A stretch of DNA of 44,514 nucleotides from assembly GCA_004431415.1 (NCBI GenBank), contig QPMI01000646.1, positions 1 through 44,514 on the forward strand, written 5' to 3'. Numbering within the stretch: position 1 is the stretch's first letter; the number at the start of each line of letters is the position of its first letter. This document shows, piece by piece, positions 5,529 to 31,750 of the stretch. Position numbers and translations under genes: made by a program. Under the pieces are notes generated by a model, which made no database searches, had not been told where the DNA came from, and saw nothing but the letters and a program-made list of their open reading frames with translations. Origin of the DNA: Cyanophora paradoxa CCMP329. Its lineage: Eukaryota; Plantae; Glaucophyta.

Positions 5529-5569
<41 letters not shown>

Positions 5570-5645
5570 CCCTAACCCTAACCCTAACCCTAACCCTAAC
5601 CCTAACCCTAACCCTAACCCTAACCCTAACCCTAACCCTAACCCT

Positions 5646-5677
<32 letters not shown>

Positions 5678-5714
5678 CCCTAACCCTAACCCTAACCTAA
5701 CCCTAACCCTAACC

Positions 5715-5755
<41 letters not shown>

Positions 5756-6238: not shown

Positions 6239-6279
<41 letters not shown>

Positions 6280-14067: not shown

Positions 14068-15377
14068 ATGGCTTCTCCGGCCGAGCGAGTGACTGGTTTA
14101 CGCGAGCGGCTAGTTTTATCATGTGGCCTCGACGGATCCTCAACTGCATACAGGACGATCGACGTCGCCGTGGCGCTCGGGGACCCACGCACAGACACAC
14201 TCGTCGCCGTGCACGTACATGATCAGAGTGCCAGGTAAATATTCTTCAGCGTTCTCGCGGTGATGCATATCCGCTCACAGTCCAGTACGCCGCAGCTTGA
14301 AGAAGGAGATTGGCGATTGTGCTTCAATCGCAGCCCACAGGGCGGGTTTCAAGGATAAGCAATTCGTATTCTGCCCCAGTGGGAAAAACTACGGAGAAAG
14401 TACAAAGGAGGCTGTCCTCCGAATCGCAAGCAGTCAGGAGTGCGTGGTCGCTGAGCAGTCAGGAGTGCGTGGTCGCTGAGCAGCCTGTCCTCCGAATCGC
14501 TGAGCAGAACGGACATTCTATTTCTCGGGTCGATCGGTCGCAAGAAAGAACACGCCAACGTAAATGTGGTAGAGGTCATGGTGTGTGCCTGCCCGACTTT
14601 TTTGACACTTCTATTCTGCGATCGATCTTCTTTTTTGCCCAGGGGTCTGTCTGCGATCTTTCTATTCGAGGGTTCGCGGCAAGCTCGGTGAGTGCACACT
14701 TATGTGCACTCATCACTCAATGCAATAACCGCACTGTCCCAGGCTATCGTGAAGCAAACGGCACCTCCCATCAAGCCGGACGACCCGCACAAGTTTCTCG
14801 TGGCCTTTGATGGCTCTGTCGCGTCGACAAAGGCATTGGATGTGCGAGTTCTGTGTCGAACTTGTTTTGGTGACATATGCTGAAGGTGCTCTGCAGCTGG
14901 CTCTACGTTTCGCCAAAGAGGCAGACGAGGTCTTTGTCTACCTCGTGACGGACTACCTTTCGTTCTCTTCATTCTTTGAGAAGCGGATCGACGAACTTAT
15001 TAAACAGCGCCAACGAAGGGGTTGGTTCATGTGGCGAAAAAATCCAAGAAGAGCATCGCTGACCAGATTCTGGATTTTGCGGATGCAAAAGGCCCCATGA
15101 CGTTCTTGTTTCTTGGGGCTGGTGCGTGTCACTTTTTTTGCACTCGTGTGCATGCACAAACTTTGAACTTAGATGGTATGGGGAAAAGCCATTCGAAAGT
15201 GGATTCCACTGGCAAGGAGGTCGCAGCCCTCCCACCCTTGCTAGCAAGTTGCTTTGGGCTGACCCCTTCGCCCTAGACTCCTGTTCTGGGCTCGGTTGCC
15301 GACTACTGCATTAAACACTCGACGACCCCGTCATCGTGGTCAAGGCCACTGACGATTACGTGTTCAAGCTTTTGTAA
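14068..15377 (+). CDS. Universal stress protein A-like protein with two Usp domains, multi-exon
   Basis: Domain 1: LSCGLDGSSTAYRTIDVAV..LVAVHV..TDILFLGSIGR..GSVCD. Domain 2: KFLVAFDGSVASTKALD..IADQILDFA..LGSVADYCIKHSTTPVIVVK. GT-AG introns. This copy has 1-nt homopolymer deletions relative to the duplicate at 29057-30017, probably sequencing errors. Confidence 0.85.
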
Positions 15378-15866
15378 CACATTTGGACATGTACTTAAAC
15401 GCAGGTCCAGGCTACAAGTGTGGGAATGTACACTGCGGCCGCCGCAGCCACGGGCCCAGCCCACTGAGCTTGCGCCCGCCCAGCCAAGCCCTGCGTTGCC
15501 CTCTGAGGGGTGTAATGCGCCTCCCCTCGGACACTCTAGCTAGCTATAGCTACATGTGCCCTTACAGCAGGTGCGGCATCGCGTCTTGGGGAGGTGGGGT
15601 CATCTTGGGGTGGTGGCCGGAGCCCCTACGGGCTCTGGGGACCCAACATGGAGTCAGCCTGCGCCAGGGGCGCAGGCGCAAAGTGGCAACAAGCAACCAG
15701 CCCGCACCCGATAGACGTTGACGTTTGTCCCTGGGGGCCTAAAGCAAGGAGCAATCTGTGCGCCACTGCGCGTCCCAGCTGCAGTGACTGCGCTTCTAAA
15801 GCTTTACCATTAACACTAATACAACGTTAAGCGTTTTACATTAATATTGTTGAATTAGAACCCGGG

Positions 15867-17066
15867 CTAATCAGGCGAAGCCTCTTTCTCAAACCCAAAA
15901 ACCGCCGATATAAATTCCTTTTTTAACCTTTTTTTCCACTCAAGATCCCCCCTGCTAAATAATTTCCGCGTCGCACTCCCTCGAGGACGAATTATTAATT
16001 CTGCCTCGACACGGACGCGATTGCCGCTAATGACTCAGCTACCCTAACCCCACAGACCTCTCTAGATCCATTTTTAGCGTCGTGGCTCCCCTAAGACGAC
16101 CGCTCGCCCGTGGGCGTCGCGCGAAAATCGAATTTCCCTCTGGATCAATTCCGGTACTTAACCTCCGACAAATGCAGTCCGAGTCAGAAGGTGGGACCCG
16201 GTCCCGCCCGGTCCCGCGACGAAATCGCGCCAGGGACGCCCCAGAACGATACAGAATGCCGCGCGAGGGCGAGCGCATCGCCGCAAGCTCGATTTCAAGC
16301 GCCGTCGACGCTCCAGTGCGAAGAGTCGGCCGAAAATTTGATCCAGCGCTAGCCGGTCCCGCCCGGTCCCGCGACGCGCGCAATCGATGCGTACTGGCGC
16401 GCATGGACATAGCAGGGCCTGCGCACCCCGAAATCCGCTTTTCGGAGCCGGAACAGCGCAGGAAGGTACCGACGGCCAAAATTCGATCCTGCACGCGCCC
16501 TGACATCTTTCCGCGCGCCCACGCCGCGGCGCATGCGCGGAACGATAGCATAAGCATTTAAGATGTAGGCAAAGTCTTCCGCACGCTTTGCGTATGCGAC
16601 GGGCCGCGAGGACCCAGCCGACCCCGAAAATTCGATCCTGCATGGACCTGCACATCTTTCCGCGCGCCCTCGCCTCGAGCTCCGCAGCCCCGCACATCGA
16701 TGCTATAGCTATATGCATTCAAGATTCTGTTTAAGCGATTCGCAAGCTCTGTGCATGCGCCTGGCCGCGAGAACCTTGCCCCTCCCGGGCCTCCCTCTCA
16801 ACAATATTATATATAATTCATCTCCTCTAATCTCAACCTGCTCCGGCCTCCCTTTATTTCCTCAGTACATTAATATTCCTCTAGTTATATTCCTCTAGCC
16901 GGCCAGCGGTAGCTGGACTGGCCGTCAGCCGGCCAGCTTCCAACCAGAAAGCTGTTCGCGATCGGCCAGGCCGCTGGCCAGTGCCCTATAGGCCTACTGT
17001 GACAGCCGCGAGGGCGTCCGCGAGGCTTCGCCGTACTTAGTGCTCCGCAGGAGCACGGATCTTGTT
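15867..17066 (+). mobile_element. Non-autonomous Helentron-type element (HINE/DINE-1-like), copy A
   Basis: 5' subTIR GGCGAAGCCTC at 15874-15884; inverted 3' subTIR GAGGCTTCGCC at 17022-17032; hairpin GTGCTCC-GCA-GGAGCAC at 17040-17056; ends CTTGTT. Internal core repeats AAAATTCGATCCT..TCTTTCCGCGCGCCC. No TSD seen. Confidence 0.75.
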
Positions 17067-17174: not shown

Positions 17175-17623
17175 GCCCCCCCCATAATTTTTTCCCAGGT
17201 GCGCGTGCGAAACTCCGACCGGATTCGAACCCGGGTTTTTTTGATACTGCTAGACGGCGACCCCCGACACCCATTGGACGCCCTTTACCCGAATTCCCCC
17301 CTCACAACAGTGATGGAAACTTTATTCATAACCTTTTTTATTAGCTAATTAATAACTAATTAATAATACGTTATTAATAAGGTCCCAGAACAGCCACTCT
17401 TATTAGTAACGTTTACAAGATCCGTGCTCCTGCGGAGCACTAAGTACGGCGAAGCCTCGCGGACGCCCTCACGTCTGTCACAGCAGAGGGGCCGGCACTG
17501 TTGAGCGCCCGGAGAGTAGGCGGCCAGCTCCAGCCCCGCCCAGGTGGCCCGGCTTGGAAAGCTTCTTCTACATCTCAAATGCTTATGCTATTGTTCCGCG
17601 CATGCACCGCGGCGTGGGCGCGC

Positions 17624-18149
17624 AGCTCAGCTTGGCGCAATGTCTCCAAACAATAACCTCGCGCGACCACACGATCCACCGTAACAGCATCGAATCTTTT
17701 CGAAAATCACCGTAAGGCTCAGTGTCACGATCGAAAAATTAATCGATAAAATACAACTTCATCGAATCACCACACGATCCACCGTAACAGCATCGAATCT
17801 TTTCGAAAATCACCGTAAGGCTCAGTGTCACGATCGAAAAATTAATCGATAAAATACAACTTCATCGAATCACCGCACGATCCACCGTAACAGCATCGAA
17901 TCTTTTCGAAAATCACCGTAAGGCTCAGTGTCAAGATCCAAAAAAATACAACTTCATCGAATCACCACACGATCCACCGTAACACCATTTTCTATGCAGT
18001 GTCTCCCACAATTCCACAAGATTCCGCACGATAAACAGTAAGACTTTTTTCGCGACTCTTCTACAAAGATTCCGCACGATTCACAGTAACTTTTAACCAA
18101 AAGTTTAATAAAAATAATTCATGCTCGACTTCGACTTCTTAGATTATAC
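17624..18149 (+). repeat. Left TIR of the virus (526 bp) with an internal 103/103/92-bp tandem array
   Basis: Reverse complement of 27521-28058 apart from a 12-bp indel; ACGATCCACCGTAAC recurs at 17671, 17774, 17877 and 17969. Confidence 0.95.
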
Positions 18150-19177
18150 TTTCGTCTCACGATGTTACTACGATTAGGTTTAATGCCTTCTTTCTTTAAC
18201 TTTTCATTAACTTTATTCGTTTTCTTGACTCTCTCTATTCGTTTCTGTGATGGAATTTTAATAATTTCGGATTCTTTCACTTTCTGTAATTCTTGCTTTT
18301 TGAAACGTCGCTTTACTTCCTGTACTTCTCCGTCCATGTCCTCCAATACTTTAAACCGGTTACCGTCAGGTCTTCCAACTTTAAAGACCTTCTGACTGAA
18401 TCGCGCACCTTCCTTTTCAAACGCACTTTTTTTACCTTCAAACACTCGAACAGTATCACCTGGTTTTACATTGACCTTCTCATTTCCCTTTACGTTGTTA
18501 TTGTGGACAGTATCCCGAAGGTAAATGTATAGCTGTTTATCTTCATCAGAATACACAGCATTTGGTGAGTCATTTTTCAAAGCACTATGAGGCGAATTAT
18601 TATAAACATCGAGAACTTCACTTAATAGATCGATCCATTTCGTTGTCCCCTTTGCTGTCATTGCCTTCCTCAAATATTGCTTGAAAGTCCTTGTGAATCT
18701 ATCGATAATTCCGAGTTTATCACCAACTGTAATATGTTCATCCTTAGCAACATCGGTATATAGTCTGACTCCATGTTCTCCGCACCAATTGCGATAAATT
18801 GCATTGGAAAACTCATTATCTCCCGATAGAGCGGCGACCTTTCCGGCGTCCTGTTTGAACCGATTAAGAATACTTGGGATATCTTGGTTTGTTTTGAAAG
18901 GATACACGTACGCCTTCCGACTTAATATATCAATAAAACTTATCATCTTAAAAATTCCATTGTTTGCTGTTTGATATCCTTTAAAATACATAATGTCTAC
19001 TTGAAATGATCGTGGCTTTGCGACAATTCTTAGAAATGTTTTAGGCTTTGGTGGTTTCTTAAATATCTGGTGAACTTCTGAGTTTAAAAATCGTTTTTTC
19101 AATTCTTCTTCATCAAAATTAACTTTATCATTTATCAATTTCTGGCGATACTTCTTGTAAGATAACACGTTATCCAT
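18119..19177 (-). CDS. Retroviral-type (rve) integrase, 352 aa
   Basis: SFQVDIMYF..FIDILSRKAYVYPFK..LSGDNEF..GIIDRFTRTFK..YNNSPHSAL..VKPGDTVRV matches Polinton/PLV integrases; basic C-tail; no chromodomain seen. Confidence 0.92.
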   Translation of the reverse strand: MDNVLSYKKYRQKLINDKVNFDEEELKKRFLNSEVHQIFKKPPKPKTFLRIVAKPRSFQVDIMYFKGYQTANNGIFKMISFIDILSRKAYVYPFKTNQDIPSILNRFKQDAGKVAALSGDNEFSNAIYRNWCGEHGVRLYTDVAKDEHITVGDKLGIIDRFTRTFKQYLRKAMTAKGTTKWIDLLSEVLDVYNNSPHSALKNDSPNAVYSDEDKQLYIYLRDTVHNNNVKGNEKVNVKPGDTVRVFEGKKSAFEKEGARFSQKVFKVGRPDGNRFKVLEDMDGEVQEVKRRFKKQELQKVKESEIIKIPSQKRIERVKKTNKVNEKLKKEGIKPNRSNIVRRKYNLRSRSRA

Positions 19178-22100
19178 TATTGAGCAGCGCAGTTACACTT
19201 AATATGGGACAGGAAACAATTTTTAGTAGTATGGGGTAACGCGTTATTGATCCGATCCACCGAAATTACACTTAAATCGAAATCCATACCACCGTAACAG
19301 CGCAGGCAATGACCATATTGTTTGCCGTAACGTTTCTTAATCCATTCCCAATTGACATAATCTTTTTCATCAAATGGTCGATTTGCCTTTCGGTCTTGCT
19401 CCTTATACAATTCGAGTCTCTCGTTAAACTTCTTCATGTTAACGACGAAATCCGCCCACTCGTAGCCATCATGGTAAATCTTCACACGGCTTAGTTCGGT
19501 CGTTCGGGTGATTGCGGTATAGAACCATTCCGCCGAAACGTATGGGGCGCCCGATTCGTAGATGACGATGTTACCGTTTTCGCATTCGATGGTATCACCT
19601 TGAACCACGTGACAAGTGTAAGCGTATGGAAGCGCAAAGTATCGCATTGCCGGCGGGTCTAATGTGATTACCTCATTTGTCGCGACGTCTTCGATGACGA
19701 ACTCTTTATCATCGAACGCCTTAATGGTGTAAGTGAACCCATTGTGAATTGTCACGCCACTCTTCACGATCCTTTGTTTTGCGACAATTTCCACACCCTT
19801 CGCGTAGATCGGGACGTCTTCGCCATGGTTCATTTTGTGGAGTTGTAGGTTCACTTCCGCCGCCTTGCGATTGGTGTAAACTATCGCCCTGTCATCCTTC
19901 CCCAAAGTATTAACTGTCTCAAACTTGTACTTTTTGATGACATCCGGGATGCTCATACCATTCTCGAATAGATCTTGTTTGATTTCCTCGACAGTGTCTT
20001 TATCCTTCTGGGACTTGTGACGCTTATTGACCTTCAATACTAATTCGTTCTGGAATAGAAGACGAAGAATGTACGAATAGTATTGTTTCTGGTCTACTGT
20101 CATATCTTGGATGGGTGGATTTTGGTAAGGATCGCCCGTGGCGATGTAAACCTTATCAGGGAATAGCACTAACATAATGTGAGCAAGCGCCGCCAACTCC
20201 GAAACTGTGAACTGACACACTTCGTCAATAAAGATACCATCATATTCAGCCAATCCCGCAGCATTTCCACCTACAACTTCGTCCATGTTTGAATCGTCAA
20301 CTTTCAGATGTAGGGCATCATAAATGGTCTTAACATTTGGTAGACCATGTTGTAGTTTCATGTCGCGAATTCTCTTGTTAGTCGGAACAATGAAAAGTGG
20401 ATTTTTGAAGCGTTTCGCAAGCTGAGTGGCTATGAATGTCTTACCAACTCCTGGAACGATTCCGAGAATGATACAACGTTTAAGAGTTTCGAGAGTATCG
20501 CAAATCGCGGGAGTGTTGTATTCATCAACCACTGAGTGAACTATGTAGTTTAACTTTTCCAACTTCACGAAATCCTCATCTCTCTCAATCTTTCCATAAT
20601 GCAACTTCTTAAGTTCAAACTCCTTGTTCTTCCCGGTAAACTTCTTAATGAAATTGGGGCAGTGGTTCACACTGAACTTTCCGATGTTGTCGTAGTTGTT
20701 GCGATCGAAAGTATAAGTTTCGATGGGATCACACGAGATTGTGTACACACAGTCAGTATTAACAGAGATCGGATAGGACCCTTTCTTACTTAGCTCCACG
20801 GTTTTCTCGTAAAGATTCATTCGCATGATGGAATACATGAGATTGTGGAAAGGTAAGAAACCATCAGTAAGGTACTTTTCGGCTTCTTGATTCACATAAT
20901 AGAAGTGTGGCTCTGTGATATTTTCCTCAGCAACGACGTAACAAGTTGGGTCATACGTTGTAGGATCTTTACCAAAAACGTATAGTTTCACCTCTCCGCC
21001 ATGTTGCTTTTGGAATTCAACGGCATCATCGCGCTTGTTAAAGATCGTGGTTTTTACTTTGTGGTTCTTCTGTTTTCCGATTTGCCCAATGTTTGATACA
21101 AGCATTTGCTTTTTATCTGTTGGGTGAAGGTCAGACTCCATGATTTGCTTGATCACATCGCCTGAGTAGTTAGGAACCAATTTATATGGTCTGAGAACCG
21201 CCTTAATGGTAATATCATCTTTCAGATCCTCGTAGTGTTTTTTGAGAACCAAACCGGGGATGACATTGTAACGTGAATCAATCAGCATTCGCTTATAGAG
21301 ATTGTAAATGTTCAGTTCGTACGTAGTTCCATCCGAATTTTTCATGGTTTTGAAAAACTTGGACTTCAATTTTACGTAGTAGAAGTTATACTTTTCGATC
21401 TGATCCGCGGAAGTTACGACTGTCTTTTGGAAATAATCGAACTTACCCACAACTGGAATATTTTCTATCTGTTTCGCGATGATCGCAGCGTATTCCTTAC
21501 ATCCATCATTTTCGTAAATATTCCTGTTCCACCAAATCTCTTCAATGGTCTCCTTATCCAAATCGAAAAATCCACGTAGGGCAGTCTGTGAACCAATGCG
21601 AAAAGCTGTAGCGGTTTGATCATTGTACGTACTCTTATTATTAGTGTTCACGAGACTCAGATACATTAAAAGATTCAGACGCTCGAACTTATCGCGATAT
21701 TCAGCATCCTTAAAGTTAATCTGGTAGGCTGTCTCTACGTCTGTATCTGAACCGGGTGGTGTGATCGTAATACTCTTTTCGCCATAGGTGAAATGAATGT
21801 GTGTAACCTTGCGCATCGGCGATAGTCCGGCGTGAACTTGGTAATTAACATCGACGATGAATGTTTTAAGGAGATCGTCAAGGTATCCACTGTAACAAAT
21901 CGAAATTTTGCTCTGGTTCTTCATCTCCTCCGAATTAATGATTTTCACAATATCCTCGGGAGTTGCCGCAAATTCGCGATGTTTTCTTTGCTTGATAATC
22001 TTGAATCGCGAACCCACCGAAAGGTTTGTGTCGGAATTCGACTTCGAACCATTGAATGAGTGAGTGAGAGATTTGAGATTTTCATTAAGAAGGTATAAGT

Positions 22101-23265
22101 GTCCACTTTCGATTTTCACGTAGGCAACCGATGGTGTGAGGTGGGTATTTCTGGTGTTTGGTTTATAGGTAAGTTCGGGTATTTCGGTCTTGTCGTCTTT
22201 GTCGATTGTGACAAAGCCAAGACGGTAAGGAGTAAGAACTTTTTCTACGATTTCCTCGAAAGTAAAGCCCCAATCATCACCCTCAACAGGTTCACGCCCA
22301 CGAATCATTTTAAATATACCTTCATGCGACCAATTCACGGATTTATACTTACCTTTCCCTTGCGCTTTCTGAAATGCTCGGGCAAAGTGCATAACAAGGA
22401 CATCGGGAACACAACGACCCACTTTAAATTTATCGCCCCGGATAAAGAGTTCCTCCAACGTTTTCGCTTGTGGGTTAGTCTCATTGCGAATATACTTCGA
22501 AATAATCATCGGAGCATATTGAGTATCACGAAGTGGTTGTAGTTGTCTCGGTGTATAAGTTTGGTTGTCCGTAGTAATGATTCGCTCGAATGTCACGATG
22601 TCACCATAAGTATTATCTTGAACTTTAACGAAGAACCGAAAATCACGATTTCCTGCATTTGATTGTGCAATGGCTAACATGAATTCCTGAATATTTTTAG
22701 CATCAAAAAGCGCTGGGAAGGTATTAAATGTTCGTATGATTTTGTCAAGCGACTTCACCAACAGATCCTCTTTTGAACACTGAATCGCGAGAGGTTGGTT
22801 AGAGCTTGTCTTTTTCATCTCGAAGTAGAACATACCATCTTCCTCGACTACATTAGAGTTAGCGGGAAGGGTTCGGATCTCAAGGGGTGAGATTTCCTTG
22901 TAAATGCGGACATGCAGAGTAACCATGTTTCCTGGTGAGTTCTGGATATACTCACGAAGGTTCGCCATCATTTCTTTGAAGGGATCCGGACGCTTGCGCT
23001 TCTCACGCTTCTTGATATTCTTAGCTGTCCTCTCCGCCCTTGCCACCTTCTTCTGTTGCTTACGCTCGAACCGTTGGTAAAGAACACGATTCAGTTCAGT
23101 AATGGTATTATCTAACTTCTCCTCTCTCGGACGCTGGTAAGTGATCAGATCAAGGTACTCCTCAAACTTCTCACGAGTGATTTTATCGGTCACAAAGGCT
23201 TCCATCGCCTTCGCCACCGTCTCTTGCTTCTTCTTTCGCAGTCTCAGATTCGATGCTCGGGGCAT
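19177..23265 (-). CDS. Putative divergent family-B DNA polymerase - SF1 helicase - HNH-like nuclease fusion, 1362 aa
   Basis: Helicase motifs are clear: GIVPGVGKT, IVPTNK, IFIDEVCQF, TGDPYQNPP, YAYTCHVVQGDT, FYTAITRT. PolB-like motifs are divergent: ENDGCKEY (A), KQMLVSNIGQIGK (B), VNTDCVY (C). C-terminal CLRC..SVDRINNALPHTTKNC..HIKCN. Confidence 0.75.
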   Translation of the reverse strand: MPRASNLRLRKKKQETVAKAMEAFVTDKITREKFEEYLDLITYQRPREEKLDNTITELNRVLYQRFERKQQKKVARAERTAKNIKKREKRKRPDPFKEMMANLREYIQNSPGNMVTLHVRIYKEISPLEIRTLPANSNVVEEDGMFYFEMKKTSSNQPLAIQCSKEDLLVKSLDKIIRTFNTFPALFDAKNIQEFMLAIAQSNAGNRDFRFFVKVQDNTYGDIVTFERIITTDNQTYTPRQLQPLRDTQYAPMIISKYIRNETNPQAKTLEELFIRGDKFKVGRCVPDVLVMHFARAFQKAQGKGKYKSVNWSHEGIFKMIRGREPVEGDDWGFTFEEIVEKVLTPYRLGFVTIDKDDKTEIPELTYKPNTRNTHLTPSVAYVKIESGHLYLLNENLKSLTHSFNGSKSNSDTNLSVGSRFKIIKQRKHREFAATPEDIVKIINSEEMKNQSKISICYSGYLDDLLKTFIVDVNYQVHAGLSPMRKVTHIHFTYGEKSITITPPGSDTDVETAYQINFKDAEYRDKFERLNLLMYLSLVNTNNKSTYNDQTATAFRIGSQTALRGFFDLDKETIEEIWWNRNIYENDGCKEYAAIIAKQIENIPVVGKFDYFQKTVVTSADQIEKYNFYYVKLKSKFFKTMKNSDGTTYELNIYNLYKRMLIDSRYNVIPGLVLKKHYEDLKDDITIKAVLRPYKLVPNYSGDVIKQIMESDLHPTDKKQMLVSNIGQIGKQKNHKVKTTIFNKRDDAVEFQKQHGGEVKLYVFGKDPTTYDPTCYVVAEENITEPHFYYVNQEAEKYLTDGFLPFHNLMYSIMRMNLYEKTVELSKKGSYPISVNTDCVYTISCDPIETYTFDRNNYDNIGKFSVNHCPNFIKKFTGKNKEFELKKLHYGKIERDEDFVKLEKLNYIVHSVVDEYNTPAICDTLETLKRCIILGIVPGVGKTFIATQLAKRFKNPLFIVPTNKRIRDMKLQHGLPNVKTIYDALHLKVDDSNMDEVVGGNAAGLAEYDGIFIDEVCQFTVSELAALAHIMLVLFPDKVYIATGDPYQNPPIQDMTVDQKQYYSYILRLLFQNELVLKVNKRHKSQKDKDTVEEIKQDLFENGMSIPDVIKKYKFETVNTLGKDDRAIVYTNRKAAEVNLQLHKMNHGEDVPIYAKGVEIVAKQRIVKSGVTIHNGFTYTIKAFDDKEFVIEDVATNEVITLDPPAMRYFALPYAYTCHVVQGDTIECENGNIVIYESGAPYVSAEWFYTAITRTTELSRVKIYHDGYEWADFVVNMKKFNERLELYKEQDRKANRPFDEKDYVNWEWIKKRYGKQYGHCLRCYGGMDFDLSVISVDRINNALPHTTKNCFLSHIKCNCAAQ

Positions 23266-23282
23266 TTTGCTTGTTTTCTTAT

Positions 23283-23317
23283 TATATATACAAGAAAAGA
23301 ATTCTTTAAGTCATTTT
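23283..23317 (-). promoter_or_regulatory. Putative viral promoter upstream of the Pol-helicase gene
   Basis: Minus strand AAAATGACTTAAAGAATTCT..TATATATAA; a near-identical motif lies at 23759-23790. Confidence 0.55.
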
Positions 23318-23459
23318 ATTCCATGAGATTTTTTTGACCGATCGGGAAAATTTACCGGTCAAGCAATTTTAAAAATAACAAAGGGGTCGACCATCATTTG
23401 ATGATTCTAAAAATAACTCGAAGCAAACCTATAAAGTTTCAGCGCGATTACCGCGGGTT

Positions 23460-23495
23460 TTGGTCTTCTCAGAGCAAGCGCGCTGAGAAAACCAA
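23460..23495 (-). terminator. Putative 3' hairpin (termination or polyadenylation signal)
   Basis: TTGGTCTTCTCAGAGC-AAGC-GCGCTGAGAAAACCAA: 16-bp stem with 2 mismatches abutting the stop codon at 23496. Confidence 0.5.
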
Positions 23496-23735
23496 TTAAC
23501 AATATATCGGCGGACGTCCTCGATTGGTACGTGGAACACCATACAGATATTTGATGAAAGATACCGCATTAGCGATATAAGCGCTTTGAGAACTCTTCAC
23601 AATCTTCATAGATCGATAGCATTCATCGGTCTTATAGAGTTCTTTTAGAGCATTCTTGTATTTTGTAAGGTATGCCTTCCCATTCTCAGTTTTCAGATAA
23701 CGCATTGTTGCTTTCTTATGCGCTTCGCTTACCAT
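23496..23735 (-). CDS. Small basic hypothetical viral protein, 79 aa
   Basis: ATG-started ORF with the same upstream motif as the Pol-helicase gene and a hairpin directly after the stop. Confidence 0.65.
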   Translation of the reverse strand: MVSEAHKKATMRYLKTENGKAYLTKYKNALKELYKTDECYRSMKIVKSSQSAYIANAVSFIKYLYGVPRTNRGRPPIYC

Positions 23736-23758
23736 TGTGTCTCTGTTGATCCTCTTCT

Positions 23759-23790
23759 AATATATAGCGAGAAATCTTTAAATCATTTTT
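23759..23790 (-). promoter_or_regulatory. Putative viral promoter upstream of the 79-aa ORF
   Basis: Minus strand AAAATGATTTAAAGATTTCT..TATATATT. Confidence 0.55.
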
Positions 23791-24075
23791 TGTCTCGTAT
23801 GTATGATGTTTCGGAACATTGCGCATCGTTAATAAGAAGATGCCCGGAAAAATAAGCTGAAGGTCTTCGCCTCCTCGATTCTACGAATGAACCCCGTAGA
23901 ACAGGTGATGAAAAAGCGTGATACATGGATATCACAACTTATCTACAACGCCGCTTAAAAAAAATTAAGCAAAACGTGAGCGCTAAAATTCGGAGATGGA
24001 TGTTTAACGCTATTCTTTGTAAAGAAAATTTTAACGTTAGAATGATGCTTAACGCTGGGCTTCGCAAATGTCGGG

Positions 24076-24681
24076 CTATGCCCTCATGTATCCCGGACGG
24101 ATGCGCAATTTAGCGAATCCTGAAAGCATCGGCGCACCATTTGGAATCGAGTTAATCGGGTCAGATTGTGATGTAGCAACCCTTAGTATATTCTTGTTAA
24201 GCACCGGCAAATCCGTTTTATTGGATTCTTGGTAATCAATCGTTTTAGCGATTAATTCATTTGTTGCGGTCTTTTCTTCTTTGATTGGATCCGGTAGGAC
24301 ATCGAACGTAACATCGGGTTTCTTTGCTACCTTCTTTTTGGTTATCGGTTCCTCCGTTATCTTCTTCTCTTTCTCTACCTCTTCTGCGATACCATCAACG
24401 AGACTTTTAGCATGTCTGTATGGTACTGTTCTTAGATTACCTTTTGTTGATCTAATAAAGTAGCGGTTCCGGCGGTCTTTTTCTGAATAAGTTGAATATA
24501 GACGCTCACCACCATCGAGAAGTTTAAGAAGAGTCGATTTTTTCGCTACTTTATCAAGCGTTGCGCTTTTGAATTGCCCCTTTTTGATACCACGCTTAGC
24601 GCCCGGCATCTTGTTTAGCGGGACTTGATCAATAAGAGCGTTAGAATCGTTAGTATCATCTACCGGCGCCGTTTTGTTCAT
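24076..24681 (-). CDS. Hypothetical Lys-rich viral protein, 201 aa
   Basis: Open ORF overlapping the penton 3' end by 26 nt; no family recognised. Confidence 0.6.
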   Translation of the reverse strand: MNKTAPVDDTNDSNALIDQVPLNKMPGAKRGIKKGQFKSATLDKVAKKSTLLKLLDGGERLYSTYSEKDRRNRYFIRSTKGNLRTVPYRHAKSLVDGIAEEVEKEKKITEEPITKKKVAKKPDVTFDVLPDPIKEEKTATNELIAKTIDYQESNKTDLPVLNKNILRVATSQSDPINSIPNGAPMLSGFAKLRIRPGYMRA

Positions 24682-25381
24682 GAATGATCATAGAGTTATT
24701 GGTAGAATCATATTTTAGAAGATGTCCTACCTCTTGGTCAATCTCAATTTTAGCGAGCGCTTTGTCATCGCTGGTGTTCTTGCTTACGTAATTACCTTTG
24801 AGTGGATCGACATGTAAAAGGATGTACGAATTAAACAGGAGATCGACCGCTATGACGCTGTCAATGTAATTGGTATATGTGTAAGCACCAACGGTTACCG
24901 GTAAATCAAACAGAACCGATGGGTAACCTTCCGCTGACTCTTGCGGTACCGTTTCTGGAAATCCGAGGAAATTGGCTAAAATAAGACTACCAAACTTAAG
25001 ATTGAATTCAGACTCTCCCATAATTCTAAGTCGCATTGATGTGGGGTTATATGAGACATTGAAGTGACGGGTATAAGTTGTTCCCGCTGTACTATACACC
25101 TGTGTTGATATCGTAGCATTTAGAAGATTTACTAAACTATCTATGGTATATGATCCTTTCGCAATGAGATTATTTTTATTTTTAATAACACCTCCTGCGT
25201 CATATGTTGATGTTGTGAGTACTCCATCCTCGCTTAGATTGTAAATGTTATTGAACATTTCGAAATTAGTAACACGACACGCTTTAACATTTTGGATTGC
25301 ATGGGGAAGTTTATAAGAATAGTTTGTGGGGGTTCCTTCGTCCCGGTCTCGGGAATCAATATTTAGATAATAACGCGTCAT
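24656..25381 (-). CDS. Minor capsid protein (penton), 241 aa
   Basis: YLNIDSRDRD..YSYKLP..IQNVK..NNIYN, IAKGSYTIDSLVNLLN and LANFLGF are typical of PLV/virophage/NCLDV penton proteins; divergently adjacent to the MCP. Confidence 0.82.
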   Translation of the reverse strand: MTRYYLNIDSRDRDEGTPTNYSYKLPHAIQNVKACRVTNFEMFNNIYNLSEDGVLTTSTYDAGGVIKNKNNLIAKGSYTIDSLVNLLNATISTQVYSTAGTTYTRHFNVSYNPTSMRLRIMGESEFNLKFGSLILANFLGFPETVPQESAEGYPSVLFDLPVTVGAYTYTNYIDSVIAVDLLFNSYILLHVDPLKGNYVSKNTSDDKALAKIEIDQEVGHLLKYDSTNNSMIIHEQNGAGR

Positions 25382-25434
25382 TCTGTTTAATAAAGTAAAT
25401 TAAAATTTTCTTTTCGTATTTTAAACATAAGATC

Positions 25435-26661
25435 ATGTCGATTTCAGGCACAACTTTAAAGGAACTCCTCGTTACTCCCGGATCGGATCAAATTTATCTA
25501 TCTCCCGGTCTTCAAATCGGAACCAACGCCAAGTATAAGCCGTTCCTTGAACAGGTTCGCCCACGCGGTAACACTTTCGGATTCAAAACAACCGCTTATT
25601 TTGATCTACCACGCAAGCAACTACTAAGTGGCGTTTCGCTTTACTTTAAGGTTGCTACCGGTGGTGGTCAGGAATGCACACTACCCAATGGCGGCGCTTC
25701 TTACATTAAAGAAGTTCGTTTTACCCATGGTGGTTTTAAGTATATGATTCCTGGCGATTGGATCACTGTAAACACTCTGATCGATAATGATTACGCCACG
25801 CTTAGTAGCATGTATATTTCGCTTGGACTTGATACCGAGACAAACCGCACATCTACAAATTATTCATCTGAGTACGTAGTGAAAATTCCCGCTGCTTTCT
25901 GGGATGATGCGTACTTCCCCCTGTGTTGCCTGGCGGAAATGCCCGCTATTGAGGTAGACTTCCGCGAACCTTCGATTGTAGAAGTCCCCGCTGGTGGATC
26001 TGTCGCCATGACTGATTGCGGGCTAATCTGTCAATTCGTTAATATCGCTTCTGCGGAGGCGGAGACTCTCATTAAAATGGCGAATGAACAGGGAGGTATT
26101 CGTATTCCGATTACGGAAGTCATCCACAAAAAGACGCGATCGCTGAAAACCGCCGATTCTGGTGAGGCGGTCGAGGTTTCACTCGCTAACGTTTCCGGTC
26201 TGGTTCATTCAATTATTATGACTGTTCGCGATGTCAACAAACTGGAGAAATACACTCATTCTGATTTCCGCGGTTACACTTCTGCGGTTAAAATCGATGA
26301 ATTCCAAATTTTCCATAATAACCGATCGCTTGAAATCTCTAATAAACCCATTTCTGGTTTCCTCTCCGCTGCTAATCATATTCCTACACATTTCAAGGGT
26401 TGCACTGTTGGAAACAATGACTTTGGATTCGAAAATGCTTGTATCTACGGTGTTGTTCTCTCTAAATCTGGGAAGGATTCGCTCCATAATTCAGTCATGG
26501 GTTATCAAGATTTCTTCAACTCTGCAAGTTCGTACATGGATCTGACCGTTTCCGGTTGCACAGATGCTGCGCCGGTTCAGGTTGACATTTATTCCTTACG
26601 TCATAATGTCATGATTCTTAATGGGTACAACATTAGTACGCTTAAGGTGTCAAATTTCTAA
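25435..26661 (+). CDS. Double jelly-roll major capsid protein, 408 aa
   Basis: Motif order resembles NCLDV-type MCPs: LLVTPGSDQIYLS, FGFKTTAYFDLPRKQLL, YIKEVRFTHGG..GDWI, IPAAFW..FPLCCL..IEVDFR, GLVHSII, VDIYSLRHNVM. Lies between penton and ATPase. Confidence 0.85.
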   Translation: MSISGTTLKELLVTPGSDQIYLSPGLQIGTNAKYKPFLEQVRPRGNTFGFKTTAYFDLPRKQLLSGVSLYFKVATGGGQECTLPNGGASYIKEVRFTHGGFKYMIPGDWITVNTLIDNDYATLSSMYISLGLDTETNRTSTNYSSEYVVKIPAAFWDDAYFPLCCLAEMPAIEVDFREPSIVEVPAGGSVAMTDCGLICQFVNIASAEAETLIKMANEQGGIRIPITEVIHKKTRSLKTADSGEAVEVSLANVSGLVHSIIMTVRDVNKLEKYTHSDFRGYTSAVKIDEFQIFHNNRSLEISNKPISGFLSAANHIPTHFKGCTVGNNDFGFENACIYGVVLSKSGKDSLHNSVMGYQDFFNSASSYMDLTVSGCTDAAPVQVDIYSLRHNVMILNGYNISTLKVSNF

Positions 26662-26763
26662 GCATTATTCTTTTCTTTCCTAAGAATAGGAACCCCCGAA
26701 AGTTGCGTATTGGTTAGCGCATTATTTTGTTTTTTATCTTATTACTGTAACGGACACACAGTA

Positions 26764-27516
26764 ATGGATATAGATTTAAATGATATTCCCGAATTCGAGC
26801 CGGCAAAAACAGCTAAATTACCGTCGCGTTTCTTACTGGCTGGTAGGTCTAATTCTGGAAAAACGACATATTGCAAATATCTACTTTATGAACTGCGTGA
26901 TAAGATCGATCAAATCGTAGTGTTTAGTTCCACTGCTTTTACGGGTCAATTCAAAGATATAACGCATCCTGGAAATATCTATGAGGAATGGGACGATAAT
27001 GTGGTGATAAAACTAATTAGTATGCAAAAGAAACGAATCGAAAACAATGAGAAACGTAATAGTTTGGTAATAATTTTAGATGACATGATCGGTTCCACAC
27101 TGAATATGGAAACAAATATGACCTTAAAAAAACTTGTTACAAGTGGAAGACATTATAATATTACCGTAATTTTCAATGTTCAGCGTTTATGTTCTATTTC
27201 TACTACCATTCGTCGTAATGTGGAATTCGTGGTTTTCTTCAATATTTTAGGGAATGAGAAAGAGTTTCAATGTGCTTATGATGAATATAACGCTGGAATG
27301 GATAGGAAGACCTACAAAGAACTACATAGACTTTGGGGTTACAATTATCAGACCGTCATAACTGGATTGCAAGGATACGATATAAAGACCTATACCGATC
27401 GCGCAATATTGACAGATGATGACATGAAAGCATTCCGCAAGTTTGTTAAGAAACGAGCGATAAAAAAGAGAGAATCGGTAAGAATTAGTAATGAACCCAC
27501 GACTATTATGGTTTAG
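26764..27516 (+). CDS. A32-like (FtsK-HerA superfamily) genome packaging ATPase
   Basis: Walker A AGRSNSGKTT, Walker B LVIILDDM, SGRHYNITVIFNVQ, IRRN. The ATG at 26764 is preferred to the TTG at 26710. Confidence 0.93.
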   Translation: MDIDLNDIPEFEPAKTAKLPSRFLLAGRSNSGKTTYCKYLLYELRDKIDQIVVFSSTAFTGQFKDITHPGNIYEEWDDNVVIKLISMQKKRIENNEKRNSLVIILDDMIGSTLNMETNMTLKKLVTSGRHYNITVIFNVQRLCSISTTIRRNVEFVVFFNILGNEKEFQCAYDEYNAGMDRKTYKELHRLWGYNYQTVITGLQGYDIKTYTDRAILTDDDMKAFRKFVKKRAIKKRESVRISNEPTTIMV

Positions 27517-27520
27517 GTTT

Positions 27521-28058
27521 GTATAATCTAAGAAGTCGAAGTCGAGCATGAATTATTTTTATTAAACTTTTGGTTAAAAGTTACTGTGAATCGTGCGGAA
27601 TCTTTGTAGAAGAGTCGCGAAAAAAGACACAACGGGCTTCTTACTGTTTATCGTGCGGAATCTTGTGGAATTGTGGGAGACACTGCATAGAAAATGGTGT
27701 TACGGTGGATCGTGTGGTGATTCGATGAAGTTGTATTTTTTTGGATCTTGACACTGAGCCTTACGGTGATTTTCGAAAAGATTCGATGCTGTTACGGTGG
27801 ATCGTGCGGTGATTCGATGAAGTTGTATTTTATCGATTAATTTTTCGATCGTGACACTGAGCCTTACGGTGATTTTCGAAAAGATTCGATGCTGTTACGG
27901 TGGATCGTGTGGTGATTCGATGAAGTTGTATTTTATCGATTAATTTTTCGATCGTGACACTGAGCCTTACGGTGATTTTCGAAAAGATTCGATGCTGTTA
28001 CGGTGGATCGTGTGGTCGCGCGAGGTTATTGTTTGGAGACATTGCGCCAAGCTGAGCT
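27521..28058 (-). repeat. Right TIR of the virus (538 bp)
   Basis: Reverse complement of 17624-18149 plus a 12-bp insert ACACAACGGGCT. Confidence 0.95.
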
Positions 28059-29056
28059 CGCGCGGAAAGATGTCCGGGCCCGTGCAGGATCGAATTTTTG
28101 CCGCCGGCTGGGTTCTCGTGCTCTTTCGCGTCTTCGAAGCTTGTGGAAGGCTTAGATAAAATCCCAAATGAATATAGTAGCGATGGGCTCGCGTGAGGAT
28201 GCGAGGGCGCGCGGAAAGACGTGCAGGTCCGTGAAGGATCGAATTTTCGGGGTCGGCTGGGTCCTCGCGGCCCGGCGCATCTGCAAAGCGTGGGGAACGC
28301 TTTGTCTACATCTCAGATGCTTATGCTATTGTTCCGCGCATGCGCCGCGGAGCGGGCGCGCGGAAAGTTGCCCGGGTCTGTGCAGGATCGAATTTTTGCC
28401 GTCGGGTACCTTCCTGCGCTGTTCCGGCTCCGAAAAGCGGATTTCGGGCGTGCGCAGGCCCTGCTATGTCTATGCGCGCCAGTACGCATCGATTGCGCGC
28501 GTCGCGGGACCGGACGGGACCGGCCGGATCAAATGTTCGGCCGACGCTTCCCACTGCAGCGTCGAGGGCGCCCGAAATCGAGCTTGCAGCGATGCGCTCG
28601 CCCTCGTGCATCATTCTGTATCGTTCTGGGGCGTCCCTGGCGCGATTTCGTCGCGGGACCGGGCGGGACCGGGTCCCACCTTCTGACCCGGACTGCATTT
28701 GTCGGAGGTTAAGTACCGGAATTGATCCAGAGGGAAATTCGATTTTCGTGCGATGCCCACGGGCGAGCGGTCGTCTTAGGGGAGCCAGGCCGCTAAAAAT
28801 GGATCTAGAGAGGTCTGTGGGGGTTAGGGTAGCTGAGTCATTAGCGGCAATCGCGTCCGTGTCGAGGCAAAATTTATAATTCCGTCTCGAGGAGGTGCGA
28901 CACGGAAATTATTTAGTAGGGGGGATCTCGAGTGGAAAAAAAGGTTAAAAAAGGAATTAGGGTCGTCGGTTTTTGGGTTTGAGAAAGAGGCTTCGCCTGA
29001 TTAGTTTAGGGGGGTACTCACAGACACACCATTTCTTGCACTCTATGACCGTCGGA

Positions 29057-30017
29057 CGAATCGCAAGCAGTCAGGAGTGCGTGGTCGCTGAGCAGTCAGG
29101 AGTGCGTGGTCGCTGAGCAGCCTGTCCTCCGAATCGCTGAGCAGAACGGACATTCTATTTCTCGGGTCGATCGGTCGCAAGAAAGAACACGCCAACGTAA
29201 ATGTGGTAGAGGTCATGGTGTGTGCCTGCCCGACTTTTTTGACACTTCTATTCTGCGATCGATCTTCTTTTTTGCCCAGGGGTCTGTCTGCGATCTTTCT
29301 ATTCGAGGGTTCGCGGCAAGCTCGGTGAGTGCACACTTATGTGCACTCATCACTCAATGCAATAACCGCACTGTCCCAGGCTATCGTGAAGCAAACGGCA
29401 CCTCCCATCAAGCCGGACGACCCGCACAAGTTTCTCGTGGCCTTTGATGGCTCTGTCGCGTCGACAAAGGCATTGGATGTGCGAGTTCTGTGTCGAACTT
29501 GTTTTGGTGACATATGCTGAAGGTGCTCTGCAGCTGGCTCTACGTTTCGCCAAAGAGGCAGACGAGGTCTTTGTCTACCTCGTGACGGACTACCTTTCGT
29601 TCTCTTCATTCTTTGAGAAGCGGATCGACGAACTTATTAAACAGCGCCAACGAAGGGGGTTGGTTCATGTGGCGAAAAAATCCAAGAAGAGCATCGCTGA
29701 CCAGATTCTGGATTTTGCGGATGCAAAAGGCCCCATGACGTTCTTGTTTCTTGGGGCTGGTGCGTGTCACTTTTTTTGCACTCGTGTGCATGCACAAACT
29801 TTGAACTTAGATGGTATGGGGAAAAGCCATTCGAAAGTGGATTCCACTGGCAAGGAGGTCGCAGCCCTCCCACCCCTTGCTAGCAAGTTGCTTTGGGCTG
29901 ACCCCTTCGCCCTAGACTCCTGTTCTGGGCTCGGTTGCCGACTACTGCATTAAACACTCGACGACCCCCGTCATCGTGGTCAAGGCCACTGACGATTACG
30001 TGTTCAAGCTTTTGTAA
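29057..30017 (+). pseudogene. 5'-truncated duplicate of the Usp gene
   Basis: Begins late in exon 2 (CGAATCGCAAGCAG), lacks the start and exon 1, and ends ..VIVVKATDDYVFKLL*. Confidence 0.85.
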
Positions 30018-30873
30018 CACATTTGGACATGTACTTAAACGCAGGTCCAGGCTACAAGTGTGGGAATGTACACTGCGGCCGCCGCAGCCACGGGCCCAGC
30101 CCACTGAGCTTGCGCCCGCCCAGCCAAGCCCTGCGTTGCCCTCTGAGGGGTGTAATGCGCCTCCCCTCGGACACTCTAGCTAGCTATAGCTACATGTGCC
30201 CTTACAGCAGGTGCGGCATCGCGTCTTGGGGAGGTGGGGTCATCTTGGGGTGGTGGCCGGAGCCCCTACGGGCTCTGGGGACCCAACATGGAGTCAGCCT
30301 GCGCCAGGGGCGCAGGCGCAAAGTGGCAACAAGCAACCAGCCCGCACCCGATAGACGTTGACGTTTGTCCCTGGGGGCCTAAAGCAAGGAGCAATCTGTG
30401 CGCCACTGCGCGTCCCAGCTGCAGTGACTGCGCTTCTAAAGCTTTACCATTAACACTAATACAACGTTAAGCGTTTTACATTAATATTGTTGAATTAGAA
30501 CCCGGGCTAATCAGGCGAAGCCTCTTTCTCAAACCCAAAAACCGCCGATATAAATTCCTTTTTTAACCTTTTTTTCCACTCAAGATCCCCCCTGCTAAAT
30601 AATTTCCGCGTCGCACTCCCTCGAGGACGAATTATTAATTCTGCCTCGACACGGACGCGATTGCCGCTAATGACTCAGCTACCCTAACCCCCACAGACCT
30701 CTCTAGATCCATTTTTAGCGTCGTGGCTCCCCTAAGACGACCGCTCGCCCGTGGGCGTCGCGCGAAATCGAATTTCCCTCTGGATCAATTCCGGTACTTA
30801 ACCTCCGACAAATGCAGTCCGAGTCAGAAGGTGGGACCCGGTCCCGCCCGGTCCCGCGACGAAATCGCGCCAG
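29057..30873 (+). repeat. Direct segmental duplication of 14420-16233 (Usp 3' part, downstream flank, element 5' end)
   Basis: Appears identical to 14420-16233 except for 1-nt homopolymer indels; substitutions begin at 30874/16234. Confidence 0.93.
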
Positions 30874-31098
30874 AGAGACCCCAGAACGATACAGAATGCC
30901 GCGCGAGGGCGAGCGCATCGCCGCAAGCTCGATTTCAAGCGCCGTCGGCGCTCCAGTGCGAACAGTCGGCCGAAATTTGATCCGGCCGGTTCCGCCCGGT
31001 CCCCGACGCGCGCAATGCATGCCTACGGGCGCGCATAGACATAGCAGCGCCTGCGCACCCCGAAATCCGCTTTTCGGAGCCGGAAGAGCGCAGGAAGG

Positions 31099-31750
31099 TA
31101 CCCGACGGCAAAAATTCGATCCTAGACAGGCCCGGAGATCTTTCCGCGCGCCCACGCCGCGGCGCATGCGCGGAGCAATAGTATAAACATTTGAGATGTA
31201 GAAGAAGCCTTCCGCACGGTCTCTAAATGCGCCGGGCCGCGAGGACCCAGCCGACCCCGGAAATTCGATCCTGGACGGACCTGCACAACTTTCCGCGCGC
31301 CCTCGCATCCTCACGCGAGCGCTTCGCTACAATTTTCAGTTGACTCCTTTTTAAAGCTTTTCGCAAGGTCTGCAGGCGCGACACGGCACGAGAACCCAGC
31401 CGACGCAAAAATTCGATCCTGGACATACCCGACGGCAAAAATTCGATCCTAGACAGGCCCGGAGATCTTTCCGCGCGCCCACGCCGCGGCGCATGCGCGG
31501 AACGATAGCATAAGCATTTGAGATGTAGAAGAAGCCTTCCGCACGGTCTCTAAATGCACCAGGCCGCGAGGACCCACCCGACCCCGGAAATTCGATCCTC
31601 GACGGACCTGCACAACTTTCCGCGCGCCCTCGCATCCTCACGCGAGCGCATCGCTACAATTTTCAGTTGACTCCTTTTTAAAGCTTTTCGCAAGCTCTGC
31701 AGGCGCGACAGGGCACGAGAACCCAGCCGACGCAAAAATTCGATCCTGGC
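31099..31750 (+). repeat. Tandem repeat, ~327-bp unit x2, built from AAAATTCGATCCT core subunits
   Basis: CCCGACGGCAAAAATTCGATCCTAGACAGG at 31101 and 31428. Confidence 0.88.

What the first reader, a model, noticed from the sequence alone, without database searches (positions are those of the whole stretch)
19177..23265. Single-chain replicase: divergent PolB + SF1 helicase + HNH-like nuclease
Seen: unambiguous SF1 (RecD/Pif1-like) helicase motifs in the C-terminal third. Upstream are correctly ordered but non-canonical PolB-like motifs: DGCKEY for DxxSLY, KQMLVSNIG for KxxxNSxYG, and NTD for DTD. The two essential catalytic Asp positions appear retained. No clear exonuclease motifs are visible. 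The protein ends in CxxC..DRINN..H..NC..CN. Inference: polymerase, unwinding and nicking/resolution in one polypeptide, with the N-terminal ~500 aa possibly acting as terminal protein or origin binder. This implies a replication mode different from canonical pPolB Polintons.
Basis: partly seen in the sequence, partly recalled or inferred. Interest (0 to 1): 0.85.

Follow-up and report, generated by a model that had tools for sequence, protein, structure and literature searches.

The report
Polinton-like virus polymerase-helicase fusion gene
This is the unbroken replication gene of a 10.4-kb virus-like element inserted near a chromosome end of a eukaryote: one protein joins a protease fold, a protein-primed DNA polymerase fold, a helicase and an HNH-like tail and likely copies the element's DNA, but virologists already described this fusion in 2016 and 2024, so it is a new member of a known family.

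Summary
The 1362-aa ORF has the quoted motifs. The polymerase part folds like phi29 protein-primed PolB (Z 14.8). D587 and D838 are kept in 123 and 124 of 124 full-length homologs. The helicase is SF1B.

The gene lies in a 10,435-bp element with 526/538-bp terminal inverted repeats, AG...CT ends, a 5-bp target duplication, an rve integrase, an A32 ATPase and a probable capsid gene: an endogenous Polinton-like virus.

The architecture (variable N-terminus, vOTU, palm, SF1 helicase, HNH) is the published 'Tlr1-like helicase' or pPolB-S1H fusion (PMC5499653, PMC11161782). 931 sequence clusters match it. This scan also met the fusion on other DNA.

The nicking or resolving role of the HNH tail is unsupported: Arg replaces the usual catalytic His. 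Whether the palm is active is disputed in print, and my searches found no assay. Conservation here favours activity, and this unbroken copy is a good test substrate. Verdict: new member of a known kind, interest 0.28.

The parts
19177..23265 (-). pPolB-S1H ('Tlr1-like helicase') replication gene, 1362 aa, unbroken
   Evidence: 931 clusters at E<=1e-3 for residues 231-1362
22516..23265 (-). Variable N-terminal region, residues 1-250: basic helical start, then an alpha/beta domain at ~95-232 in the position of the terminal protein (function inferred from position only)
   Evidence: only 31 of 124 homologs cover >=60% of it, median identity 13%; pLDDT mostly 46-78; no listed PDB row covers it
22069..22512 (-). 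vOTU-like cysteine protease, residues 252-399, Cys285/His389
   Evidence: OTU rows Z 6.6-4.6 over model 163-317; C 123/124, H 124/124
21646..21987 (-). Probable catalytically dead remnant of the exonuclease domain, residues ~427-540
   Evidence: aligns to phi29 polymerase residues 5-185, Z 4.8, rmsd 3.9, 93 residues, tied with glyoxalase rows; no conserved acidic residue
20620..21633 (-). Protein-primed-type PolB palm/fingers with insertions at the TPR1 and TPR2 positions, residues ~545-882; motif A D587, motif B K719..G727, motif C T837-D838
   Evidence: Foldseek phi29 E 1.2e-8; VIA Z 14.8 versus <=8.1 for RNA-primed PolBs
19471..20523 (-). SF1B (Pif1/RecD/Dda-like) helicase, residues ~915-1265
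   Evidence: family profile hits PDB 5ftb E 4e-17, RecD2 1e-12, Dda 2e-12, Pif1 entries; motifs invariant
19180..19413 (-). HNH-like zinc-finger tail, residues ~1285-1362; Arg at the usual catalytic His position
   Evidence: Pfam HNH weak hits in 2 of 36 homologs (E 0.0018 and 0.036); PacI E 0.083; Atlas look-alike cluster 84% HNH
18119..19177 (-). rve (retroviral-type) integrase, 352 aa; its ATG overlaps the replicase stop by one base; its last 31 nt lie in the left TIR
   Evidence: Pfam rve E 0.0034, IS481 E 6e-7, integrase structures E 0.011, 30% identical to the gene behind the replicase in L004
17624..18149 (.). Left terminal inverted repeat, 526 bp, starts AG, holds a 103-nt tandem repeat x3
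27521..28058 (.). Right terminal inverted repeat, 538 bp, ends CT; no mismatch to the left copy apart from one 12-nt gap
17619..17623 (+). Target-site duplication CGCGC, left copy
   Evidence: empty sites of the same host repeat near 16513, 31146 and 31473 and joint 17618->28059 in runs X1 and X15
28059..28063 (+). Target-site duplication CGCGC, right copy
25435..26661 (+). [quoted passage not shown]
   Evidence: Atlas look-alikes at 0.98 carrying Capsid_N/Capsid_NCLDV, but recognition 1831 is below the 2300 mark; no Pfam, PHROG or PDB sequence hit
24656..25381 (-). Possible minor capsid protein, 241 aa (inferred from position and a recalled N-terminal pattern)
   Evidence: no significant family hit; weak choice-of-anchor hit; not tested by fold
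26764..27516 (+). A32-like genome packaging ATPase, 250 aa
   Evidence: Pfam Pox_A32 E 6e-15, above cut-off
24076..24681 (-). Basic ORF of 201 aa, no assigned family
23496..23735 (-). Small basic ORF of 79 aa, no assigned family

Best explanation
The ORF is a pPolB-S1H fusion ('Tlr1-like helicase') encoded by a 10.4-kb Polinton-like element integrated in a eukaryotic chromosome, and it likely copies the element's linear DNA by protein-primed, helicase-assisted strand displacement. Shown: the domain order (variable N-terminus, OTU fold, phi29-type palm, SF1B helicase, HNH-like tail), the conservation of the catalytic residues, and the TIRs, target duplication and integrase of the element. Inferred steps: (1) after excision, the N-terminal alpha/beta domain serves as terminal protein and is linked to the first nucleotide at a TIR end; (2) the vOTU protease (C285/H389) cuts it from the enzyme; (3) the palm (D587, D838) extends the strand without proofreading; (4) the SF1B helicase, moving 5'->3' on the displaced strand, travels the same way as the polymerase and opens the duplex; (5) the HNH-like tail is an appended homing-endonuclease-derived zinc module that probably binds DNA and is not needed as a nickase; (6) the rve integrase inserts new copies with a 5-bp duplication, and the ATPase and capsid genes would package them.
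For: Fold: all 7 Foldseek PDB hits at E<=0.001 are phi29 polymerase. VIA-align gives phi29 Z 14.8 over 360 residues against Z<=8.1 for RNA-primed PolBs, and many OTU rows at residues 252-399. Among predicted viral structures the named top hits are pPolBs of bidnaviruses/densoviruses, mavirus and tectiviruses. Conservation: 122 of 124 homologs keep all eight core residues C285, H389, D587, K719, D838, K942, E1015 and R1254, at a median identity of 25% in the palm. Motif C lacks the first Asp in 124 of 124; the 2024 paper says this Asp is also absent from active PolBs. Helicase. Selection: 25 of 33 differing codons in run X17 and 12 of 20 in run X2 are synonymous, against 22% expected (only the 40 of 94 rows that one search printed, mostly in the helicase half). 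Element anatomy. The same architecture and the same predicted mechanism are in PMC11161782 sections 8 and 9.
Against: No activity was measured, and my paper searches found no assay of this family. The 2016 paper read the palm as inactive, and a 2025 preprint still does. Motif B of this copy lacks both the usual Asn (Val here; Asn in 112 of 124 homologs, Val in 9) and the Tyr. The terminal-protein role of the N-terminus rests on position only: it is poorly conserved, has modest model confidence, and no conserved Ser/Thr/Tyr linking residue was visible in the alignment. The capsid assignment rests on a language-model look-alike with low recognition.
Confidence: 0.65

Rival explanations
1. The palm is an inactive scaffold (the 2016 reading). 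The protein works as a helicase and origin-binding factor and leaves synthesis to a host or helper-virus polymerase.
For: The first Asp of motif C is absent in 124 of 124 homologs. Motif B is degenerate in this copy. The exonuclease is dead. Stated in PMC5499653 and repeated in bioRxiv 10.1101/2025.10.09.676808.
Against: D587, K719, G727 and D838 are near invariant at 25% median identity, which is hard to explain for a dead site. The same authors reversed their view in 2024.
Confidence: 0.15
2. One reading: the HNH tail is an active nickase or resolvase that starts or resolves replication at the TIRs, so replication is nick-primed and not protein-primed.
For: The tail is kept with its Cys/His/Asn pattern in most homologs (109 of 124 keep the core plus five tail residues), so it is under constraint and is not a decaying passenger.
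Against: Arg stands where HNH nucleases have the catalytic His (R1338 in 113 of 124; the HNH consensus is recalled). About 8 of 124 homologs lack the tail. Tlr1 has GIY-YIG in its place. An intact vOTU and a phi29-type palm point to protein priming.
Confidence: 0.12
3. The palm is active but primes without a terminal protein (primer-independent or host-primed). The vOTU then acts as a deubiquitinase against host defences and not as a self-processing protease.
For: The N-terminal domain is not conserved and shows no clear linking residue. Viral OTUs also act as deubiquitinases. Pipolin polymerases share the missing motif C Asp; their primer independence is recalled.
Against: The fold is closest to phi29 protein-primed polymerase. 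The genome is linear with near-identical TIRs. Variable terminal-protein folds are described for this family.
Confidence: 0.08

Closest known systems
pPolB-S1H fusion proteins ('Tlr1-like helicases') of Polinton-like viruses, incl. Bigelowiella natans PLVs (PMC5499653; PMC11161782)
   Same: Length 1,000-1,400 aa; order variable N-terminus, vOTU, palm with TPR1/TPR2, SF1B helicase, C-terminal HNH; first Asp of motif C missing; no working exonuclease; linear genome with TIRs, capsid genes and A32 ATPase.
   Different: Motif B has Val for the family's Asn (a subclade of 9 of 124 homologs). One zinc Cys is His. A folded domain between vOTU and palm looks like an exonuclease remnant, whereas the text I read says the domain is lacking. 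The element is small (10.4 kb) next to the 14-40 kb quoted for PLVs in the abstract of PMC12220804.
Tlr1 element of Tetrahymena thermophila
   Same: rve integrase plus pPolB-S1H plus MCP, mCP and ATPase, no maturation protease, integrated in many copies.
   Different: Tlr1 carries a C-terminal GIY-YIG domain; this protein has an HNH-like tail.
Transpovirons of mimiviruses
   Same: pPolB-S1H fusion, linear DNA with TIRs.
   Different: Transpovirons (~7 kb) lack structural genes; this element has an A32 ATPase, a probable capsid gene and an integrase.
Canonical Polinton/Maverick pPolB and mavirus pPolB
   Same: TP-vOTU-palm layout and rve integrase; mavirus also keeps only an exonuclease remnant and lacks the first motif C Asp.
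   Different: Polinton pPolB has a full exonuclease and no fused helicase; mavirus has a separate SF3 helicase. No maturation protease gene was found among the ORFs here.
OmPLV helicase SF1-pPolB of Oxyrrhis marina (PMC12721341)
   Same: SF1 helicase and pPolB in one chain in an endogenous PLV.
   Different: Reverse order (helicase first) with a complete exonuclease; an independent fusion.

Membership tests
pPolB-S1H (Tlr1-like helicase) | SF1B helicase domain in the C-terminal part of a 1,000-1,400 aa protein | tested here: met
pPolB-S1H (Tlr1-like helicase) | Family B palm of the protein-primed type upstream of the helicase, with motifs A-C | tested here: met
   phi29 best; motifs; insertions between motifs A/B and B/C in the model
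pPolB-S1H (Tlr1-like helicase) | vOTU domain with catalytic Cys and His before the palm | tested here: met
   OTU rows Z up to 6.6 (rmsd 3.9, 111 aligned) on residues 252-399; C285 123/124, H389 124/124
pPolB-S1H (Tlr1-like helicase) | No functional exonuclease domain | tested here: met
   no conserved acidic residue in 428-547; the best Asp columns are 46/124 and 26/124; a fold remnant is possible
pPolB-S1H (Tlr1-like helicase) | C-terminal HNH (PLVs) or GIY-YIG (Tlr1) domain | tested here: met
   weak but concordant: Pfam HNH in 2 of 36 homologs, PacI E 0.083, Atlas cluster 84% HNH, conserved Cys/His/Asn; the tail was not folded
pPolB-S1H (Tlr1-like helicase) | Terminal-protein-like alpha/beta domain before the vOTU | tested here: inconclusive
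   alpha/beta domain predicted at 95-232 with pLDDT 46-78; no listed row covers it; the domain was not folded alone
pPolB-S1H (Tlr1-like helicase) | Monophyly with Tlr1, transpoviron and PLV helicases in a tree | not tested
   no named reference sequences were returned by the tools
Polinton-like virus (endogenous) | A32-like packaging ATPase | tested here: met
   Pox_A32 E 6e-15
Polinton-like virus (endogenous) | [quoted passage not shown] | tested here: inconclusive
   Atlas 0.98 to Capsid_N/Capsid_NCLDV clusters but recognition below the mark; no sequence hit; not folded
Polinton-like virus (endogenous) | Minor capsid protein | tested here: inconclusive
   241-aa ORF beside the probable MCP; no significant match
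Polinton-like virus (endogenous) | Linear element with terminal inverted repeats, integrase and target-site duplication | tested here: met
Canonical Polinton/Maverick | [quoted passage not shown] | tested here: not met
   fused to a helicase; exonuclease residues not conserved
Transpoviron | No virion morphogenesis genes | tested here: not met
   A32 ATPase present; probable MCP
Active HNH endonuclease | Catalytic His of the D-H motif (consensus recalled) | tested here: not met
   Arg in the query and in 113 of 124 homologs; activity itself is not testable with these tools

The most novel reading that the evidence does not exclude
The element is a near-minimal, still mobile Polinton-like virus whose single-chain enzyme is a self-sufficient replisome: it primes on its own N-terminus, cuts itself free, unwinds and polymerises using an active site that lacks the usual motif B Asn and Tyr. 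It also keeps a dead exonuclease fold and a His-less HNH module as repurposed DNA-binding parts. That would settle the 2016-versus-2024 dispute on palm activity and give a one-protein, helicase-coupled strand-displacement polymerase.
Probability: 0.3. Interest if true: 0.55.

Novelty: new member of a known kind. Interest (0 to 1): 0.28.

Why it matters
The fusion itself is known. What remains open is whether these palms synthesise DNA: the family was called inactive in 2016 and predicted active in 2024, and my searches found no assay. This locus offers an unbroken gene inside a complete element with near-identical ends, an empty-site control and sister copies with mostly synonymous differences, so it is a convenient substrate for that test. 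A working single-chain polymerase-helicase would explain how many Polinton-like viruses and transpovirons replicate, and could be useful for isothermal amplification.

Tried and rejected
No whole genome is held for the window, so copy number was not counted and the host was not identified. It is a eukaryote with (CCCTAA)n telomere repeats.

Single-protein pattern scans of viral contigs with the replicase, the probable capsid protein and the ATPase found no relative. Deep alignments could not be used for pattern scans. The word-index search found no capsid homolog. BLASTP of the probable major and minor capsid proteins against the matching genes of L006 was not significant, so no capsid alignment or fold was made.

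PHROGs, the phage collection and the plasmid collection gave nothing useful for the replicase. The isolated 415-560 domain had no Foldseek hit at E<=0.001, and the phi29 row is tied with glyoxalase rows. No row covers residues 90-250, which shows nothing about novelty because that part was not folded alone.

No RNA holder was listed on record. Runs guessed to be RNA cover the integrase and the 3' half of the replicase gene, but this is not used as evidence of expression. The top viral-structure hit H6WBE3 has no name in the tool and appears in no searched paper. A candidate linking residue (Y220-G221) was considered and dropped because the homolog alignment there is unreliable. No complex prediction was run.
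Full report
Observation. A search of 1.84 billion cluster representatives with residues 231-1362 found 931 clusters at E<=0.001 and 221 at E<=1e-30, at 25-33% identity among the 150 listed. I aligned the query with the 124 proteins of 1100 aa or more among the 151 then held (27 shorter ones dropped). D587 is kept in 123 of 124, K590 in 111, Y592 in 119, K719 and G727 in 124, T837 in 113 and D838 in 124. None of the 124 has Asp at 836. The helicase motifs G939, G941, K942, E1015, T1217 and R1254 are invariant. The motifs are real and far beyond chance.

Fold. An AlphaFold2 model of residues 90-930 from 58 sequences had mean pLDDT 80.2 and pTM 0.81. All 7 Foldseek PDB hits at E<=0.001 are phi29 DNA polymerase (best 1.2e-8). 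The wide VIA search ranks phi29 first (Z 14.8, rmsd 4.9, 360 residues), well above RNA-primed PolBs (Z 8.1 and below). Among predicted viral structures the named top hits are protein-primed polymerases of bidnaviruses/densoviruses, mavirus, phi29-like phages and tectiviruses. The polymerase part is therefore of the protein-primed type. A profile of 116 family members hits Pif1-like, RecD2, Dda, RecD and TraI helicases (best E 4e-17), so the helicase is SF1B.

One search lists many OTU proteases (yeast Otu2 Z 6.6, OTUD3 6.0, a viral OTU 5.9) on residues 252-399. C285 (123 of 124) and H389 (124 of 124) are the only near-invariant catalytic-type residues there. This is the vOTU domain. Residues ~427-540 form a separate alpha/beta domain (model pLDDT 85.8). 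It aligns to phi29 residues 5-185, the exonuclease domain (boundaries recalled), with Z 4.8, rmsd 3.9 and 93 residues, but that row is tied with shorter glyoxalase rows, and Foldseek gave no hit at E<=0.001. Its position and coverage make an exonuclease remnant likely. It has no conserved acidic residue, so it would not proofread. Residues 1-250 are variable (31 of 124 homologs cover 60% or more, median identity 13%). A terminal-protein role is inferred from position only.

The tail. C1320, C1323, R1338, H1345, N1349, C1357 and N1358 are kept in 106-115 of 124 homologs; H1354 is Cys in 111. Support for HNH is weak but concordant: Pfam HNH in 2 of 36 homologs, PacI at E 0.083, and an Atlas look-alike cluster with 84% HNH. 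By the recalled HNH consensus (D-H ... N ... H/N), R1338 sits at the catalytic His. About 8 of 124 homologs lack the tail. A nicking or resolving role is therefore unsupported, though the conservation shows the module does something.

Surroundings. The gene lies in a 10,435-bp element at 17624-28058 with 40.5% G+C, against 51.5% and 55.8% in the flanks. Its TIRs are 526 and 538 bp with no mismatch and one 12-nt gap; the ends are AG...CT, flanked by CGCGC on both sides. The interrupted host repeat occurs empty three times elsewhere in the window, and contigs of two runs join 17618 to 28059 with a 5-base overlap. Run X20 has a different flank behind 28059, which points to another insertion site with the same end. 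The element encodes an rve integrase, an A32 ATPase, a probable major capsid protein (low recognition; no sequence hit), a possible minor capsid protein and two unassigned ORFs. The window starts with about 7.6 kb of (CCCTAA)n, so the site is subtelomeric in a eukaryote. Of the ten loci fetched, L004 has the same replicase-then-integrase order, L003 also has an integrase match, and L006 shows ORFs that look by eye like integrase, ATPase and capsid genes (not tested).

Copies. Fourteen DNA runs of one organism hold 0.80-0.82 of the element's words. Differences from the window copy are mostly silent: 25 of 33 differing codons in X17 and 12 of 20 in X2, against 22% expected. This used only the 40 of 94 difference rows that one search printed, most of them in the helicase and tail, so it says more about the helicase than about the palm. 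One X17 contig has a net 55-base loss in the helicase region, so some copies are broken.

Mechanism. Shown: domain order, folds, conserved residues, and integration with a target duplication. Inferred: terminal-protein priming at the TIR ends, release by the vOTU, synthesis by the palm, and unwinding by the helicase. SF1B helicases move 5'->3', which on the displaced strand is the direction of the fork, so polymerase and helicase in one chain can move together. I put this whole scheme at 0.65, an inactive palm at 0.15, nick-priming by the tail at 0.12 and priming without a terminal protein at 0.08. Family membership itself is about 0.95.

Comparison with what is known. PMC5499653 (parts 1-3 of 5 read) describes 1,000-1,400 aa SF1 helicases of PLVs, Tlr1 and transpovirons with a pPolB domain, no exonuclease, and a C-terminal HNH in PLVs, and judged the palm inactive. 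PMC11161782 (sections 6, 8 and 9 and passages) gives the order TP-vOTU-palm-S1H with HNH or GIY-YIG and predicts activity despite the missing first Asp of motif C. PMC13215967 (passages) reports many such fusions from genome and metagenome mining. bioRxiv 10.64898/2026.06.19.733378 (passages) lists polB-SF1 genes among typical PLV replication modules. PMC12721341 (abstract and section 15) describes the reverse-order fusion. bioRxiv 10.1101/2025.10.09.676808 (passages) still calls the domain inactive. Figures and supplements were not seen; they may already show the exonuclease remnant or this motif B variant. Searches for an enzymatic test (listings only) returned none. Four earlier notes of this scan reach the same family on other DNA; my reading was recorded before I saw them, and they are not evidence.

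Verdict. Small additions here are a complete 10.4-kb integrated element, a motif B variant without Asn and Tyr (Val in 9 of 124 homologs), a likely exonuclease remnant and a His-less HNH tail. Novelty: new member of a known kind. Interest 0.28, mostly because the locus makes the open question of palm activity easy to test.

Noticed in passing
window 1-7660: Telomeric (CCCTAA)n array, 1196 exact hexamers, so the window starts at a chromosome end.
   Followed up: partly
window 40323-44512 (+): Helitron-like Rep/helicase gene pieces: Helitron_like_N E 3e-9 and a weak Pif1 2B hit in separate ORFs.
   Followed up: no
window 18119-18149 and 27521-27551: The last 31 nt of the integrase gene lie inside the left TIR and are mirrored in the right TIR just behind the ATPase stop; both outermost genes end at the TIR edge.
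   Followed up: partly
window 19175-19179: The replicase stop codon overlaps the integrase start codon by one base, which may couple their expression; in L004 the two genes are 22 nt apart.
   Followed up: no
window 18119-19177 (-), residue 159: The integrase has Asp where DDE integrases have Glu (IIDRF; ERF in the L004 homolog).
   Followed up: no
window 17666-17988 and 27738-28016: 103-nt tandem repeat, about three copies, inside each TIR; a candidate origin or protein-binding array.
   Followed up: no
window 25382-25434: A 53-bp AT-rich spacer separates the two divergent gene arms (five genes leftward, two rightward); possible two-way promoter.
   Followed up: no
window 14420-16765 versus 29057-31398; 16048-16676 versus 28198-28822: Host subtelomeric repeats occur as a direct duplication about 14.6 kb apart and as inverted copies around the element; the element sits in one unit of a ~149/178-nt repeat family.
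   Followed up: partly
window 20178-20240: A contig of run X17 skips 61 bases with 6 other letters between, a frame-shifting loss in the helicase region of a sister copy.
   Followed up: no
L003 9839-12672: A related replicase gene is split into two ORFs in a 66-kb viral contig whose other ORFs look fragmented.
   Followed up: no
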